A stretch of DNA of 28,645 nt from a virus (Duplodnaviria; Caudoviricetes), in the IMG/VR virus record IMGVR_UViG_3300011335_000330, positions 1 to 28,645 of that record; one strand, written 5' to 3'. The position numbers were made by a program, and so were the translations under genes. Below are positions 5,682-21,158 of this stretch, one piece after another (position 1 is the first letter of the stretch; each line of letters starts with the position of its first letter). Under the pieces are notes generated by a model. The model had not been told where the DNA came from and searched no databases. It saw only the letters and a list, made by a program, of their open reading frames with translations.

Positions 5682-6800
5682 CTATACTTTAGTTCCGTAA
5701 ATCTTACGAAACAATTCGTTAGTGACCTTTTGTTGTGTCTCAGTCAGCTTGTTCCCATAAGACAAATCAATGGCTCTCTTTATGGTGTACCCCGTAAGCA
5801 TTTTTTTGCAAACAGACTGTAGAGCACGGGGTGACATTGTAAGAGTTAGTTGATTGGAGGAATATCCTTGCCGAATAAGATTGCCAAACTTAACCAAGTT
5901 CTTAATAACATCTGTTGCCAGCTTAGGAAACTTACCCTCTAGCATCTTGCACTCAACATTTTCCAGCATGTACCCCATACGGATAGTAGTTCCAAACCTA
6001 TCCAGGGTTGCTGTGTTTTGTACGTTGGTTCCGCTGTGTGCTCCTGTGTCATCGCCCTGACCCTGGGTATTACCCAGAGCAACAATGCGAAACCTGTCTT
6101 CTGGAGTAATGAACTTCTCTTCTGAAGACCCAGGCATTTCTTTCAGGAACAGTTTCCCATCCTCTTCTAGGAGCCACTGTAGGCCCATTGTGATCTCAGG
6201 AGGGGTAACGTCCCATTCATCCCACGCAAACACGGCTCCGTAGCGTACAGCCTCTGTAGCAGTGCCATCTACCCAGAAAGTAGACCCATCTTTGGCAGCT
6301 TGTTGCCCAAAGATCATAGAACTGTCCATATCTCCTGTGCAATTCAGCCTGAAGAAAGGACGACCTGTGTGAGCACAGAGTTGCTCGACTATAGAGCTCT
6401 TACCAGCACTGGTGGGCCCATAGATAAGGATCTTATCTTTGCTCTCCCATGCCATCAGGATGTCTTTGGTAACTATCGGATCTAAGACATAGGTAGGATT
6501 TACCTTAGGTATAAACCCTCTGATACGTTCATCCCAATCTTCTGGAACATATTTAGACACTGGAAAATCAATGTCAAACTCAAGACTAGGCAACAGATCT
6601 TTTACGTACACTTGTTTTGTTTCAAGAACTGTTGAAGCAATGTATACCACTGGTTTGATTTTAACAACAGACAAAGCAACAGATTCGTCTACCTCTGCGT
6701 GTACATCCACCTCCTCAACTCCTTTACGCCGTGATATGGCGTCTTTGATTGCTGTTTTAACCAAATCTTCAACAGGAACCACTTCTGATTTAATAGTCAT
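5682..6800 (-). CDS. MoxR-family AAA+ ATPase (CobS/CbbQ/NorQ-like)
   Basis: Walker A GPTSAGKS, Walker B FAWDEWD, FRIVALGNT, ATLDRF and SPRAL. Confidence 0.92.
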   Translation of the reverse strand: MTIKSEVVPVEDLVKTAIKDAISRRKGVEEVDVHAEVDESVALSVVKIKPVVYIASTVLETKQVYVKDLLPSLEFDIDFPVSKYVPEDWDERIRGFIPKVNPTYVLDPIVTKDILMAWESKDKILIYGPTSAGKSSIVEQLCAHTGRPFFRLNCTGDMDSSMIFGQQAAKDGSTFWVDGTATEAVRYGAVFAWDEWDVTPPEITMGLQWLLEEDGKLFLKEMPGSSEEKFITPEDRFRIVALGNTQGQGDDTGAHSGTNVQNTATLDRFGTTIRMGYMLENVECKMLEGKFPKLATDVIKNLVKFGNLIRQGYSSNQLTLTMSPRALQSVCKKMLTGYTIKRAIDLSYGNKLTETQQKVTNELFRKIYGTKV

Positions 6801-8619
6801 TTAGTAACTTCCTCTCTATGAGTTCTAACAATTTAAAAGGAATATCTTCAGGCGTTGCTACTGTAGAGTGATGTTTATAAAAGCGGTTTACTGATTCATC
6901 ACACAGTCCTAAACCATAGATTTCCACTCTCTTAAACTTCTCTATCTCTTGTATTACTTTCAATGTATATGCAGCTAAATCATCACTAGGTCTACTTGCT
7001 GCTGGTTGTCCGTCAGACATTACTATCAACAATCGTTTCTTTTCTTTTCTCTTTAGCAACCTATCGTAAGACCAAAGAATACAATCTCCGTCAGGGTTGC
7101 CTCTCATCCTGCTACTGCTTGCTCCAATGTACTCTAGTAGTTTGTCTTCTGGTGTGTGTAAAGTAGAAAACTCTTTGTACACATACATTAGAGTGTCAGC
7201 ATCGTGTACGTTCTCTGTATCAGTAAAGCCTAGTATCTCTAAAGGAACATTTAATATAGAAAACACACTGTTAAGAAGCAGTGCTGCCTCACAAGCAAAC
7301 AAAACCTTGTCTCCAGACATACTTCCTGACATATCTATTAGAATAGTTACCGCAGCATCTAAAGTAGAGTTGGTTATTTTGTTTTTAAATATACGTTCTG
7401 AAAAGCCAGGTAACTTTAGAGCCAGTCTGGAAAGTCTTGGGTAGTCTAGCTTTCCTTTCTTGACTCCATATTCATACCTAACCTTGGAGCGTATCTGTAT
7501 AAGCCTACGTACTTGTTGAGCAAAGTTATCTACAGATGCAGATTTGTCTCTAACACGTAATTTAAAATTATCCTTGAAGAACCCAACTGATGGTGTATCT
7601 AATCTAAGCATCTTGGTTAGATCTTTTCTTGCAGTGTCTTTAGGATAATTAACTACAGCAAACTCATCTGGAGTAGTTGCTTTCCAGCTATCAGGTTTTC
7701 CTGAGAAGCTAACTGTGTAGAGCAAACCTACTTTGCTCATACGTTCATCTTCCCTGGCTTCGTGAGTAGAAACTAGTTTGTCTTCAATATCTAGTATCTT
7801 TACTCTGGCAATAGACCACTCGTCATCTCCCGGAGGAGCAGGTGGTGCATCTTTTTCCGGGTCATCGCTTGTTTCTTTTTTTGTATCTATTCCTTTAGGT
7901 TTATCTTCTATTGGTTCTCCTTTTTCTTCTTTCTTTTCTCCCTTTCCTTCTTCATCTGTTGCTTCTTTTTTCTTTTCTGGTTCTGGTGGTTTTCCTCCAA
8001 GAGCTTTGAGTATGTCTACTGCCAGATCGTAGGTCATCTTAGACCCAGCTTTCTTTTCTATTTCATCCTGACAAGCTAACAGCCTGGGTGTAAACCGTTC
8101 AAGGATTAGATCCAGCTTGTTATCAGTAACAAACTCTTTTCCAGCCAGCTCACAACTAGGAAACAAAGCAGCACTTGCCCCTGTATCCCACTTGATAAGA
8201 GACCTAAGAAGAATATCAAACTCAGACTTACCGCTAGTTTTTCTGTTGATGTTTTTAAGTAACCTGGGAGTAGATAGATCCCAGAGCTCCCTAAATCCCT
8301 CGTACTCTTTAGCTTCTAGAGCATTGACCCTTGAATCTTCTAGTATGTTCCAGAGGATTCCAAGGGTGCTACTAGCTGTATCCAACTTCTTTTCGTGCAA
8401 GATAGTAAAGTCTGAATACAAATCATGTGCTACCTCGTGATCTGTACTGGACATAATCTCTTGCATCTGTTCCAGCGTTGTGTGTCTGGTTATCTTTGGC
8501 AGATATATAGTTCTGCCATCATGTCTGGGACATCCTTTGTCTTCAAATACCACATTAAGAGATGCCCTACCTGCTGAAGCCTTAACGTACCTAGCTACGT
8601 CCAAGCTTTTAGTTAGCAT
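6790..8619 (-). CDS. CobT-like von Willebrand factor A protein with an N-terminal HExxH domain
   Basis: HEVAH...NILEDSRV at the N-terminus, a charged linker, GKLD, MIDAS motif DMSGSM and IVMSDGQP. Coupled to the AAA+ gene. Confidence 0.88.
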   Translation of the reverse strand: MLTKSLDVARYVKASAGRASLNVVFEDKGCPRHDGRTIYLPKITRHTTLEQMQEIMSSTDHEVAHDLYSDFTILHEKKLDTASSTLGILWNILEDSRVNALEAKEYEGFRELWDLSTPRLLKNINRKTSGKSEFDILLRSLIKWDTGASAALFPSCELAGKEFVTDNKLDLILERFTPRLLACQDEIEKKAGSKMTYDLAVDILKALGGKPPEPEKKKEATDEEGKGEKKEEKGEPIEDKPKGIDTKKETSDDPEKDAPPAPPGDDEWSIARVKILDIEDKLVSTHEAREDERMSKVGLLYTVSFSGKPDSWKATTPDEFAVVNYPKDTARKDLTKMLRLDTPSVGFFKDNFKLRVRDKSASVDNFAQQVRRLIQIRSKVRYEYGVKKGKLDYPRLSRLALKLPGFSERIFKNKITNSTLDAAVTILIDMSGSMSGDKVLFACEAALLLNSVFSILNVPLEILGFTDTENVHDADTLMYVYKEFSTLHTPEDKLLEYIGASSSRMRGNPDGDCILWSYDRLLKRKEKKRLLIVMSDGQPAASRPSDDLAAYTLKVIQEIEKFKRVEIYGLGLCDESVNRFYKHHSTVATPEDIPFKLLELIERKLLNDY

Positions 8620-11704: not shown

Positions 11705-11923
11705 TCAGTTAGGTTGGTAGTCTTTAAAACGCCAGTAAGAATTGTCAAAGTGGCGTAATAGGCTATCTACTGGCGTTGAGTAGGCTACGTGTGGTTCCTC
11801 CATCTCGTTTGTGATTGCCTCTAACTCAGGGTTAGCGGCTATCTCATCGTCCTCTACAATGATTACTTCCAGGACATCGTCGTACTGTTGGGAAGTAATG
11901 TAATCATACTTACGAAGGCTCAT
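11705..11923 (-). CDS. Acidic hypothetical protein, 72 aa
   Basis: Start moved to ATG 11923 (AGGAG RBS). The longer ORF call runs through a structured intergenic element. Confidence 0.7.
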   Translation of the reverse strand: MSLRKYDYITSQQYDDVLEVIIVEDDEIAANPELEAITNEMEEPHVAYSTPVDSLLRHFDNSYWRFKDYQPN

Positions 11924-11966
11924 GTTTGCATCTCCTAGTTTAATTTCACATTGTGAAAAGCGATTC

Positions 11967-12093
11967 GACGAGCCGCCCTTCGCCCCCAAAGGGGGGCGGC
12001 GAGGAGAACTCGCGTCACTAACTTTTAGTTTTTCCTCCTTTCCTTGTTTGGTTGCAAGCCGAAGGCCCACGTAGTTTGTGGGCCGAGGGTTGC
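11967..12093 (+). other. Structured intergenic element A (two-hairpin module)
   Basis: GCCGCCCTT-CGCCCCC-AAAG-GGGGGCG-GCGAG, plus a 40-nt hairpin at 12054-12093 with a GAA/GA internal loop. Homologous to element B. Confidence 0.75.
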
Positions 12094-12095
12094 TG

Positions 12096-12263
12096 TTAAA
12101 TGGAATGAACATTAACAACACCTACCTTTTTAGGAGCTTTACCCTGGGAAGATATGACCCAGTTCTGAAGCAGACTGAAGTAGAACGGGTATTTGGACTC
12201 AATTGGAGTCCTTAGATCATTGACTACTGGTTCTTGCACGGTTGGGAAGGTATTGGTAGTCAT
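12096..12263 (-). CDS. Hypothetical protein, 55 aa
   Basis: Not in the ORF track. MTTNTFPTVQEP...VNVHSI, with GGAG RBS and ATGA coupling. Stops at the edge of element A. Confidence 0.6.
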   Translation of the reverse strand: MTTNTFPTVQEPVVNDLRTPIESKYPFYFSLLQNWVISSQGKAPKKVGVVNVHSI

Positions 12264-12400
12264 TTCCTATCTCCCAGGTCTTCGCACTCTTGATCGGTGT
12301 GGCAGTCACTGTCCCAGAGTTGGGTATCCAGCATGTGTTTGTTAATAAGTACGGTATTAACTACAGTCAAAAACAATAGCAACATCAATAACTTATTCAT
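12260..12400 (-). CDS. Small secreted or membrane protein, 46 aa
   Basis: Not in the ORF track. MNKLLMLLLFLTVVNTVLI...DCHTDQECEDLGDRK, with AAGGGA RBS. Confidence 0.65.
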   Translation of the reverse strand: MNKLLMLLLFLTVVNTVLINKHMLDTQLWDSDCHTDQECEDLGDRK

Positions 12401-12465
12401 TTTATTCCCTTTGTGTTTAATTTATTTTATTCTTTGTCAGGCACCTCTTCTTCTCTTCCTGGGGC

Positions 12466-12660
12466 TTATCTGACAACCTTTTGTTTCCTGGTGTCGTTTC
12501 CGTTGAACGACTCCCACCAGTAGGCACTATTGCCCGGTGAGTCCCACTCCGCTAGGAAATCGTGGTTGGAAGAACACGCCGCCATCGACATGGCTTGCGC
12601 GGCTTCCTCTGAATGTGCTGCACAAAACTGAAATTGATTTTCCATCAATAAATTATTCAT
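12466..12660 (-). CDS. Hypothetical early protein, 64 aa
   Basis: GAGGA RBS. Its initiation region is nearly identical to that of the gene starting at 12400. Confidence 0.65.
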   Translation of the reverse strand: MNNLLMENQFQFCAAHSEEAAQAMSMAACSSNHDFLAEWDSPGNSAYWWESFNGNDTRKQKVVR

Positions 12661-12686
12661 TTTATCCTCTTTGTTATTTACTTAGA

Positions 12687-12813
12687 GCAGGCGCAGGCTC
12701 GCCGCCCTCACCCCGAAGGGGTGGCGAGACTGTGACTGCGTTCTCGACTCTCGTGTTATTAGTAACAAAGCTTGCAGCTCGAAGGCCACAGCAACACCGT
12801 GGCCGAGAGGTGC
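12687..12813 (+). other. Structured intergenic element B (two-hairpin module)
   Basis: Long stem at 12687-12739 capped by ACCCC-GAA-GGGGT, plus a 40-nt hairpin at 12774-12813 with a GAA/GA internal loop. Covaries with element A. Confidence 0.78.
12754..12767. promoter_or_regulatory. Palindromic operator-like site TGTTATTAGTAACA
   Basis: Exact 14-mer found four times in intergenic DNA. This copy lies between the two hairpins of element B. Confidence 0.65.
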
Positions 12814-13139: not shown

Positions 13140-13172
13140 TTGGTTCTCTATTGGTTGGTGAACAAACGGAAA

Positions 13173-13197
13173 GGTAAGGGAGACTAGCTCCCTTACC
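13173..13197 (-). terminator. Putative intrinsic terminator or attenuator
   Basis: Perfect 10-bp stem GGTAAGGGAG/CTCCCTTACC followed by TTTCCGTTTGTT on the minus strand. Preceded by a TAACCC-GCAA-GGGTTA hairpin at the stop codon. Confidence 0.55.
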
Positions 13198-13214
13198 CTT
13201 GTAACCCTTGCGGG

Positions 13215-13430
13215 TTAGTCCTTCTTGGCGGCTTTCTTCGCGTCAGCTTCTTCTTTGATCAGCTTCGCGATCTTGTTTGCTTTCACCATGATCTCCCGAA
13301 CTTCGGAGTGGTGGTCGCTGTTGTAGTCATCCAGCATGTGGCTGTAACGCCGCATGAGGGTAACTGCTGCCCACAGGCAAAGAGGAGTCGGAACTGCATC
13401 CAAGCTATTAAAACTGAATTGATTATTCAT
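13215..13430 (-). CDS. First gene of the early arm, hypothetical protein, 71 aa
   Basis: AAGGGA RBS, helical Lys/Ala-rich C-terminus and a downstream terminator. The frame is intact, unlike its inverted copy. Confidence 0.75.
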   Translation of the reverse strand: MNNQFSFNSLDAVPTPLCLWAAVTLMRRYSHMLDDYNSDHHSEVREIMVKANKIAKLIKEEADAKKAAKKD

Positions 13431-13468
13431 TGTGTTTCCCTTCTTTAGTTAACTGGGGACATCCCCCA

Positions 13469-13627
13469 AAAAGTCCGAGCAAACCAACAGCCCCGAAGGG
13501 CAGGGCACTACATTGGTAGCGGCAAGGCCGGAAGGCCCAACGCCGTGCCACGGCTTTATCGTGGCGCGGGTGCCGCAACCTCGCGGGCTGTAAGAGGAAC
13601 TACCGCAGCCCGCGCACCTAGCGAGGC
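13469..13627 (+). other. GC-rich multi-hairpin element C (apex of the fold-back)
   Basis: GCCC-CGAA-GGGC; GCGGCA/TGCCGC enclosing GGCC-GGAA-GGCC and GTGCCACGG/TCGTGGCGC; CCTCGC/GCGAGG; GCGGGCTG/CAGCCCGC. Confidence 0.7.
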
Positions 13628-13926
13628 TGGGGGTGTCCACAGATAACTACAGAAGGATAAGAAACACAGTGAATAAACAATTCGGTTTTGTTTTAATAGC
13701 TGGGTGGATGCAATTCCTACACCTCTCTGCCAGGTTTGTGGGCTGCTGTTACCGTCTTGGGACGATACAGCCGCTGGAATGACTACGGCTTCAGCGGCTA
13801 CCGCACCTAAGATCGGGTTGGTGGAGGCAAACTTGCTCGGCTTATCAAAGGAGAGGCTGAGGTGAAGATGCCAAGAGGAGACATACCCACAAGGGTAGCA
13901 AGGTAGGGGGGATAGTCACCCATACC
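13628..13926 (+). pseudogene. Non-coding degenerate inverted copy of the 71-aa gene with its flanks
   Basis: ATG changed to GTG, several frameshifting indels, and GAA changed to TAA. Probably structural rather than a decayed paralogue. Confidence 0.6.
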
Positions 13927-14016: not shown

Positions 14017-14220
14017 TGAGTAGTAAGGGAGTTGTAATTGCTAATGTTATTAATAACTTACCGTCATGTTGTAAGCTGCATCAACCCCCACAGTTACATC
14101 ACTGCCCCTGCTGTCCTAAGCTACATCAGGTGGGGGAGGGGAAAAGCATGCTTTGCTAAAATTTATATATCACCACATGTAACGATTTTTATAGTTTTTA
14201 AATAGTGGGTAGGTACTCCC

Positions 14221-14356
14221 TATATATATATAACTACTATATAACTACTAATAACAACATATATATAACTACTACCCCCATATATATATATATATAACTA
14301 CTATATAAAAGAACTAATGTTGTTACTAATAACAACTACTATATATATAACTACTA
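14221..14356. repeat. AT-rich region with (TA)n tracts and five ATAACTACTA repeats (candidate origin, packaging or terminus region)
   Basis: ATAACTACTA at 14230, 14241, 14265, 14294 and 14347, each preceded by TA runs. Non-coding and just upstream of terS. Confidence 0.75.
14321..14334. promoter_or_regulatory. Palindromic operator-like site TGTTACTAATAACA
   Basis: Exact reverse complement of the 12754 and 16769 copies. Confidence 0.65.
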
Positions 14357-14513
14357 CTGCTCTTGCTGTTGAATCTCAGTCTAGAGCCTTATAGGGCCTA
14401 TTCTTACAAATGTAAGCGTTTTCATTTTGGCTGTAGGGTTATTAGCTATTGTTCTTTTTCACCCACTGTGGTTTACTTCCGTTCCATAGAGATATGGAAC
14501 GAGTACACAGGAT

Positions 14514-20596: not shown

Positions 20597-20857
20597 ATGA
20601 ACGTACCAGTTACGCAACAAGATTTTGAGGAGTGGTTAACCATTCCAGCAACAAAGAAGTTTTTTAAGAAGATCAGGGACGAGCGCGAACAGATGAAGGA
20701 AGGTTTGATAAATGATGTTTACGAGCGCCCTGAAGTAGTAAAAGGCATGTGCAAAGCTATTGCACTAATTTTAAACATTGAGTACGAGGATCTACATGAG
20801 CAACAGTTCGACAAGCGGAATCAATCCAGTGGGCCACAGGATTCTCTTGCTGCCTAG
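20597..20857 (+). CDS. Hypothetical protein, 86 aa
   Basis: Small helical ORF between portal and GroES. Confidence 0.7.
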   Translation: MNVPVTQQDFEEWLTIPATKKFFKKIRDEREQMKEGLINDVYERPEVVKGMCKAIALILNIEYEDLHEQQFDKRNQSSGPQDSLAA

Positions 20858-21158
20858 AGAGATAGCAGAAAAGACTACTAGCGGTATCATCATTGCTACA
20901 GATTCAATGAGAGAGCGGGAACAGATGTCTAATACCACAGGCGTAGTTGTGTCTATGGGAGATAGCTGTTACGACGATATGAGCACCCCTTGGTGCAAGG
21001 TTGGAGATAAGGTAGCGTTTGCCAAGTACGCTGGGCTCCTTTACCAGGGTAAGGATGGCGTTAAATACAGGATGGTTAATGATGGAGACATCACTGCTGT
21101 TCTAGATTCTGACGTTGAGTTAGTAGATCCCTATCTGGTTACAAAGAAAAGCACCTAG
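20796..21158 (+). CDS. groES: Co-chaperonin GroES (Cpn10)-like protein
   Basis: INPVGHRILL, mobile loop EKTTSGIII, GVVVSMG, KVGDKVAFAKYAG and DGDI. Start moved to ATG 20796 (GAGGA RBS). Confidence 0.9.
   Translation: MSNSSTSGINPVGHRILLLPREIAEKTTSGIIIATDSMREREQMSNTTGVVVSMGDSCYDDMSTPWCKVGDKVAFAKYAGLLYQGKDGVKYRMVNDGDITAVLDSDVELVDPYLVTKKST

What the first reader, a model, noticed from the sequence alone, without database searches (positions are those of the whole stretch)
11967..12813. Repeated two-hairpin intergenic element with covariation, folding antisense to its genes
Seen: two 40-nt hairpins 720 nt apart, GCAAGCC-GAA-GGCCCAC-7nt-GTGGGCC-GA-GGGTTGC (12054-12093) and GCAGCTC-GAA-GGCCAC-9nt-GTGGCC-GA-GAGGTGC (12774-12813). 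Both keep a C-GAA-G/C-GA-G internal loop, one G-G mismatch and the same length while the stem sequence changes. Each has a partner GCCGCCCT-C(G/A)CCCC-loop-GGGG..GGCGAG motif (11972, 12701) in which two C-rich tracts compete for one G-run, like a switch. These partners lie 41-49 nt upstream of a minus-strand start codon. The G-T and G-A pairs and a C-GAA-G triloop work only on the plus strand. Known: GNA triloops and sheared G-A pairs are especially stable in ssDNA. I do not recognise this as a described family.
Basis: partly seen in the sequence, partly recalled or inferred. Interest (0 to 1): 0.8.

Follow-up and report, generated by a model that had tools for sequence, protein, structure and literature searches.

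The report
Template-strand fold-backs heading phage early genes
An uncultured phage and dozens of relatives carry a conserved two-hairpin DNA element in front of early genes, whose mismatches favour folding of the template strand, plus a mirror copy of the first gene; these likely act as single-stranded-DNA start signals for the host polymerase, which is untested.

Summary
The two hairpins are real, co-vary and have no Rfam match. They are copies of a ~140-nt element (hairpin P1, AT-rich linker, hairpin P3) in front of early-gene ribosome sites in a clade of ~45-kb phages: 36 of 39 terminase-anchored loci have a strong hit on the template strand. Mismatches are G·A/A·A rather than T·C/T·T (165:25), G·T bias is weak, and GNA triloops are enriched: a DNA-like fold of the template strand. 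A third, larger copy (13467-13628) tops a 300-bp fold-back whose right arm is a non-coding mirror of the first early gene. The mirror co-evolves with the gene, ends at its terminator and has G·T:A·C 252:54 (14 loci). No phage RNA polymerase or sigma factor was found, and no conserved sigma70 boxes. Best reading: folded single-stranded-DNA start sites, Frpo-like in topology but not Frpo or N4 members. The route to single-strandedness is unknown. The 'switch' is only a local register slip. P1 also folds well as mRNA before a U-run, so an RNA role remains a rival. The scan noted similar hairpins and mirrors earlier on other phages.

The parts
11705..11923 (-). 72-aa acidic early ORF headed by element A; its homologues in L154/L155 are headed by the same element
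11960..12013 (+). Element A, hairpin P1 (GA/GA internal loop, two C-tracts and one G-run)
12014..12053 (.). Element A, AT-rich linker; strain variants fall here, not in the stems
12054..12093 (+). Element A, hairpin P3 (GCAAG..TTGC base, C-GNA-G/C-KA-G internal loop, G·G mismatch)
12466..12660 (-). 64-aa early ORF headed by element B
12687..12739 (+). Element B, hairpin P1 with CCCC-GAA-GGGG top
12755..12766 (.). Linker palindrome GTTATTAGTAAC; member of a genome-wide dispersed motif found on both strands
12774..12813 (+). Element B, hairpin P3; related strains switch to other sequence right after its last base
13170..13200 (-). Intrinsic-terminator-like hairpin after gene 1; marks the outer end of the fold-back's left arm
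13215..13430 (-). Gene 1, conserved 71-aa three-helix protein of unknown function; its template strand is the left arm of the fold-back
13467..13628 (+). Element C (type II core): multi-branched, with a P3-like helix at 13519-13576 sharing the YGCCA/TGGCR core and the RGCTTTATC loop
13629..13926 (+). Mirror: non-coding, degenerate inverted copy of gene 1 with its leader and terminator; pairs with 13173-13466 on the plus strand
14129..14212 (.). G-run / AT-rich / G-run block conserved a few hundred nt right of the mirror in relatives; candidate genome end or packaging site (inferred)

Best explanation
The two hairpins are copies of a conserved two-hairpin element whose mismatches favour folding of the template strand, and they likely work as folded single-stranded-DNA start sites that let the host RNA polymerase transcribe the phage's early gene blocks. 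Shown: conservation, covariation, position in front of early ribosome sites, strand bias, the co-evolving mirror of gene 1, and no detected phage polymerase or sigma factor. Inferred step 1: the folding molecule is DNA, not RNA. Inferred step 2: the early region is the end that enters first, and its template strand, which would carry the 3' end there, becomes single-stranded after 5'-strand resection or displacement. Inferred step 3: a protein, most simply host RNA polymerase, reads the invariant YGCCA/TGGCR helix and the GCA/TGC helix about one turn below it, and starts RNA towards the gene. Inferred step 4: for gene 1 the mirror would act as a substitute non-template strand that peels the transcript off the template. 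The same structure could prime DNA synthesis, as Frpo does.
For: Covariation: 92.6% of cells paired and 13 of 29 pairs with two-sided change in 25 relatives, with 0-1 of 500 shuffles as high; 13 of 25 pairs in 9 window-type copies. Spread: 36 of 39 terminase-anchored loci with a hit at E<1e-10, all on the template strand; in the three complete genomes searched whole, hits lie only in the early region. Strand-neutral counts in 34 elements: G·A 111 vs T·C 21, A·A 54 vs T·T 4. DNA-parameter folding favours plus in 53 of 56 regions, RNA parameters in 40 of 56; GNA triloops plus 58, minus 18, shuffled 13, whereas GNRA tetraloops are plus 10, minus 17. Mirror: long arms in 15 of 39 loci; G·T 252 vs A·C 54 and purine-purine above pyrimidine-pyrimidine in 14 of 14; arms track each other within genomes, 45:5 and 43:7 columns; arms end at the gene-1 terminator. 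Sigma70-like sites are not enriched: 0 vs 5.2 in the window, 11 vs 21.8 over 31 loci. No Sigma70_r2 in 5 records while 11 of 14 controls rang. The large virion protein resembles LPD38-type ejection proteins, not a polymerase.
Against: No known step exposes several kb of one strand in such a phage, and no strand-specific nick motif was found. The canonical -35/-10 boxes that define Frpo are not seen in the stems. G·T vs A·C inside the short elements is only 39:24, p=0.08, and G·G vs C·C 27:20. P1 folds better on the mRNA strand in 21 of 34 with RNA parameters and is followed there by a U-rich run. Purine-rich loops also suit a plus-strand RNA. A>G and C>T excess in the mirror could come from strand-biased mutation rather than selection. 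A leftward TTGACA promoter-like site near terS exists in some relatives (10 of 27 loci with any site, against 15.9 expected) and could drive early RNA conventionally. In a compact operon any spacer lies upstream of a gene, so position alone is weak. The cross-hits linking window-type and distant-type elements are weak (E 5e-4 to 0.4; model R2 misses A and B).
Confidence: 0.4

Rival explanations
1. The elements act in the early mRNA: P1 plus the U-rich run is a terminator or attenuator, or the hairpins are RNase III-type processing sites before each gene block as in T7 (recalled), and the mirror locks the start of gene 1.
For: P1 folds better on the mRNA strand in 21 of 34 with RNA parameters and is followed by U-rich sequence. 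GNRA and cUUCGg loops are commoner on that strand, 23 vs 10. The elements sit directly before ribosome sites.
Against: On the mRNA the conserved mismatches become U·C, U·U and A·C. P3 favours plus in 30 of 34 even with RNA parameters. The mirror would give 252 A·C against 54 G·U pairs in mRNA. The terminator scan did not list P1 of A or B.
Confidence: 0.2
2. The folded template strand is a replication or end-protection signal rather than a promoter: an ssi-like priming site for primase, or a fold-back that caps and re-primes a resected genome end, which would also re-copy the mirror.
For: Same strand evidence as the best explanation. GNA mini-hairpins occur at G4 and RSF1010 ssiA priming sites (passages of PMC13037366). 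DnaA-box-like sites lie right of the mirror in 12 of 31 loci, 23 in 33 kb vs 0 in 106 kb of late genes. Arms co-evolve. The same P3 occurs in a non-coding GCGNAGC-rich repeat outside the clade (L327).
Against: The phage has its own primase and helicase. There are 2-4 copies per genome, each heading a gene block. The mirror ends at a transcription terminator. None of the 13 arm pairs inspected is near-perfect (about 70-84% identity), as fresh re-copying would give. The window has no DnaA box there.
Confidence: 0.17
3. A plus-strand (antisense) structured RNA of about 140 nt is made from each element and regulates the overlapping leader or binds a protein.
For: Tandem G·A pairs and A-rich loops are common in RNA; plus folds better in 40 of 56 with RNA parameters; the near-invariant T·G pair (24 of 25) suits RNA.
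Against: No conserved rightward promoter or U-tailed terminator on plus; weak G·U bias; triloops instead of GNRA/UUCG loops on plus; no Rfam match.
Confidence: 0.13
4. They are double-stranded promoter cassettes, sigma54-like (TGGC-N-TTGC) or PeSL-like, whose similarity also drives gene shuffling; the hairpins are secondary.
For: Both window copies read GG-N10-GC towards their gene, close to TGGCACnnTTnTTGC (section 20 of PMC8743547). Strains switch gene content at element borders 12005, 12686 and 12813 (L235 and L242).
Against: Correct spacing towards the gene at the conserved place in 17 of 34, in the opposite direction in 10, in neither in 9 (read). No sigma70 boxes as in PeSLs. It does not explain covariation or strand bias.
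Confidence: 0.1

Closest known systems
Frpo1/Frpo2 and ColIb-P9 ssi single-stranded promoters of plasmid leading regions (passages of PMC9849209)
   Same: Repeated, non-coding, fold on the template strand, head the first-expressed genes, would use host RNA polymerase.
   Different: Frpo rebuilds canonical -35/-10 boxes, which are not seen here; plasmid DNA enters single-stranded, whereas this is a tailed dsDNA phage; the papers I read describe no gene-length mirror.
Coliphage N4 early promoters read by the virion RNA polymerase (passages of PMC13492108 and PMC13037366)
   Same: Template-strand DNA hairpins with GNA loops in front of early genes.
   Different: N4 hairpins are 5-bp stems with a 3-nt loop and need a 3500-aa T7-like polymerase; here the hairpins are 40-80 nt with internal loops, and no such polymerase was found.
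PeSL cassettes of T4-type phages RB49/phi1 (passages of PMC2839356)
   Same: Repeated intergenic stem-loop cassettes before small early genes, G/C-run stems, borders where gene content changes.
   Different: PeSLs carry strong sigma70 boxes and act as terminators on the RNA; these lack the boxes and favour the template strand.
G4 and RSF1010 ssiA priming hairpins (passages of PMC13037366)
   Same: DNA mini-hairpin motifs such as CCGAAGG on a strand that could be copied from the hairpin.
   Different: Those are single origin signals of ssDNA or strand-displacement replicons; here there are several copies, each heading a gene block.

Membership tests
Frpo/ssi single-stranded promoter | Folds on the template strand upstream of early genes | tested here: met
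   (predicted folding and mismatch bias only)
Frpo/ssi single-stranded promoter | Stem reconstitutes canonical -35 and -10 boxes | tested here: not met
   No conserved TTGACA/TATAAT pair in alignments A1, A3, A4 (read by eye) or in scans
Frpo/ssi single-stranded promoter | DNA is single-stranded when read, and RNA polymerase initiates on it | not testable with these tools
   needs in vitro transcription and an infection
N4 virion-RNAP promoter | Phage encodes a T7-like virion RNA polymerase | tested here: not met
   PF00940 absent in 5 complete relatives, but the control was also empty; 1502-aa virion protein has no polymerase family or motif and resembles LPD38 clusters; it was not folded
N4 virion-RNAP promoter | 5-7-bp stem with C-GNA-G triloop at a fixed distance from the start | tested here: not met
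   Present in B's P1, absent in A's; loops vary across relatives
PeSL | Strong sigma70 -35/-10 within the cassette | tested here: not met
PeSL | Gene content changes at cassette borders | tested here: met
   loose ends at 12005, 12686, 12813 in run X5; L235, L242
sigma54 promoter | GG and GC exactly 10 nt apart, pointing at the gene | tested here: inconclusive
   Met in both window copies and 17 of 34 elements, not in the others
sigma54 promoter | Enhancer-binding activator and its site | not tested
   host unknown
Any Rfam family | Match at gathering score | tested here: not met
RNase III early-mRNA processing site | Cleavage of the mRNA hairpin | not testable with these tools
   needs RNA end mapping

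The most novel reading that the evidence does not exclude
A tailed double-stranded DNA phage with no polymerase of its own starts infection from single-stranded DNA: the entering end is stripped to its template strand, which folds into promoters for the host polymerase, and a co-evolving mirror rebuilds a duplex over the first gene so that its mRNA is released.
Probability: 0.25. Interest if true: 0.88.

Novelty: new variant of a known kind. Interest (0 to 1): 0.62.

Why it matters
Single-stranded-DNA promoters are known from conjugative plasmids and from N4 with its own polymerase. A clade-wide, covarying template-strand structure plus a maintained gene mirror in a polymerase-less dsDNA phage would mean that such phages pass through an unrecognised single-stranded state early in infection and use it, possibly turning host end-resection to their advantage. 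The elements are short enough to test with oligos and purified enzymes even though the phage is uncultured.

Tried and rejected
Rfam at gathering and E-value thresholds: nothing on the elements. The loose pattern scan was swamped by chance hits (about 8000 estimated). Of 4 hits to the tighter pattern, 3 were clade members and L210 lacks the outer stem. Of 119 metagenome hits, 9 had the GCA base: 6 clade members, L327 and 2 chance. Both genome-contig hits lack the hairpin. No DNA match in cultured phages. The nearest named phages OK172329 and MW202796 (terL 48-52%) have no model hit and no mirror, so no cultured model was found. No RNA holder listed. tf-type nick motif TACTRTGMC not enriched, and TAGTAAC is on both strands, 150:143. 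Gene 1 folds as three helices and matches only uncharacterised phage proteins. The 180-aa ORF at 854-1396 matched only unnamed clusters. The 1892-aa virion protein of G002 was checked by motif only. Riboswitch-like switch rejected. L327's contig could not be read further. Paper searches listed no description of this element or of gene mirrors in phages; one search returned 0 papers, and subscription journals are largely missing. No supplements were read.

Full report
Setting. The window is 28.6 kb of a tailed phage: exonuclease, family-A polymerase, DnaB-like helicase, primase, CobS/CobT-like genes and small ORFs on the minus strand, diverging near 13.4-14.5 kb from terminase, portal, GroES and capsid genes on the plus strand. 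Complete relatives are 44-50 kb. The nearest named phages by terminase are MW202796 and Alcaligenes phage OK172329 at 48-52%. The plus strand is the template of the early genes.

Observation. Both hairpins and partners are where stated. The shared core occurs twice against 0 in 100 shuffles, and an independent run confirms the sequence. Rfam has no match on the elements. Strand preference is clear for A, but for B only with DNA parameters.

A family. Loci fetched through terS and terL carry the same unit: hairpin P1, a short AT-rich linker, hairpin P3, 15-45 nt from a ribosome site. Nine window-type copies give 13 of 25 pairs with two-sided change, for example T-A to G-C beside a retained G·G, with GAA varying to GTA. 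Twenty-five copies from more distant relatives give 92.6% paired cells and 13 of 29 pairs with two-sided change, with 0-1 of 500 shuffles as high; these controls ignore relatedness. Two models hit 36 of 39 terL-anchored loci at E<1e-10, always on plus; L141 and L195 hit weakly, and L130 starts beyond the site. Twenty-five of the 30 loci hit by the second model were in its training set. The two subtypes cross-hit only weakly, so joining them rests on position, architecture and the shared core: a YGCCA/TGGCR helix with a GCA/TGC helix about one turn below, G·A-closed internal loops and a C-run in P1.

Which strand, which polymer. Aligning the arms of 34 elements with Watson-Crick-only scores gives G·A 111 vs T·C 21 and A·A 54 vs T·T 4, but G·T 39 vs A·C 24 (p=0.08) and G·G 27 vs C·C 20. 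In 56 non-redundant leader regions plus folds better in 53 with DNA and 40 with RNA parameters; GNA triloops number 58 on plus, 18 on minus and 13 in shuffles, whereas GNRA loops number 10 and 17. Those regions came from 63 candidates picked on plus-strand energy, minus 6 dropped by eye and near-duplicates, plus some added by hand; nearly all also passed the threshold on minus, so the bias is small. Against a pure plus-strand reading, P1 folds better as mRNA in 21 of 34 with RNA parameters and is followed there by U-rich sequence. That comparative methods cannot reliably tell ssDNA from RNA motifs is stated in PMC5737381 (passages).

The switch. The two registers of P1 are within 0.1-2.4 kcal in five window-type copies but only shift the top of the hairpin; L154a and L159 have no alternative within 3 kcal. 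I do not read it as a switch.

The third copy and the mirror. A larger element (13467-13628) heads the first early gene, a conserved 71-aa helical protein. It tops a fold-back: 13173-13466 pairs with 13629-13926 (DNA -230 plus vs -205 minus). The right arm is a frameshifted inverted copy of gene 1 from leader to terminator. Fifteen of 39 loci have such arms at a neutral score of 60 or more, where control regions reached at most 48 even with wobble allowed; several others have 45-100-bp arms. In 14 of them (one near-duplicate dropped) G·T outnumbers A·C 252:54 and purine-purine exceeds pyrimidine-pyrimidine in all 14; pairs opposite a left-arm C are the least often broken, the order expected for DNA mismatch stability (recalled). 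Arms resemble their own gene more than the mirror of a relative (45:5 and 43:7 columns; 0:76 between two very close genomes), so the mirror is maintained or re-copied. Strand-biased mutation could contribute. A conserved G-run/AT-rich block lies a few hundred nt further right and is a candidate genome end by analogy with tf/LUZ24, which have convergent gene sets and short terminal repeats (passages of PMC3517423).

What could read it. No T7-like polymerase family in five complete relatives, though the control was also empty; no sigma region 2, with controls positive; the 1502-aa virion protein resembles LPD38-type clusters. Sigma70-like sites are not enriched, although a leftward TTGACA recurs near terS in several relatives, beyond the candidate end. 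The core resembles the sigma54 motif (PMC8743547 section 20) with correct spacing towards the gene in both window copies but only 17 of 34 overall. No one-strand nick motif was found (PMC11780129 passages).

Mechanism. I commit to folded single-stranded-DNA start sites on the template strand (0.4). The mirror ending at the terminator fits a substitute non-template strand. Rivals are mRNA terminator/processing (0.2), priming or end-capping (0.17), antisense RNA (0.13) and duplex cassettes (0.1). Strains change gene content at element borders, so the repeats probably also serve as recombination joints, whatever their main role.

Known systems. It would work like Frpo/ssi (PMC9849209 passages) but lacks their boxes; it shares GNA hairpins with N4 promoters and G4/ssiA origins (PMC13492108 and PMC13037366 passages) but lacks the polymerase; it shares cassette behaviour with PeSLs (PMC2839356 passages) but lacks sigma70 boxes. 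It is a member of none. Nine paper searches listed no description; papers were seen as passages or one section only. Earlier unchecked scan notes report template-strand hairpins and gene mirrors on other phages, none on this sequence or genome; they are leads, not support.

Verdict. Real, clade-wide and undescribed in what I could search; new variant of a known kind; interest 0.62.

Noticed in passing
window 12755-12766, 14046, 14322, 16770, 24212, 25257; G001, G003: Dispersed quasi-palindrome GTT(A/C)(C/T)TAGTAAC; the core TAGTAAC occurs 20-29 times per genome on both strands, also inside genes; possible protein-binding site.
   Followed up: partly
L327:1-570: End of a 2.7-kb metagenome contig: GC-rich non-coding repeat of about 340-nt period, with 10 GNA mini-hairpin motifs on one strand near the match and none on the other, holding a hairpin almost identical to P3 of L134; no plasmid, phage or Rfam match.
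   Followed up: partly
L127 (OK172329) 27896-47879: TGATCGACC occurs 11 times on one strand and never on the other in the early half of this cultured Alcaligenes phage; candidate nick motif like those of tf.
   Followed up: partly
L154 ~8800, L155 ~7100 and 10 other loci, right of the mirror: Mostly paired DnaA-box-like TT(A/T)TNCACA sites in 12 of 31 loci and none in 106 kb of late genes; absent from the window.
   Followed up: partly
window 14221-14361: TATATATATAACTACTA-type repeats next to the conserved G-run block; possible origin or terminal region.
   Followed up: no
window 12383-12424 and 12643-12684: 42-nt direct repeat of ribosome site plus first codons (MNKLL/MNNLL) shared by two neighbouring small ORFs, echoed at gene 1 (13423-13442).
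   Followed up: no
L213:14694-16022: ATP-grasp (GARS-like) protein next to the large ejection protein in relatives.
   Followed up: no
L155:7645-8280: ORF that looks like a cytosine methyltransferase (by eye, not searched) inserted just before terS.
   Followed up: no
window 5682-8619, 20778-21158: CobS/CobT-like AAA+/vWA pair and a GroES homologue, conserved across the clade.
   Followed up: no
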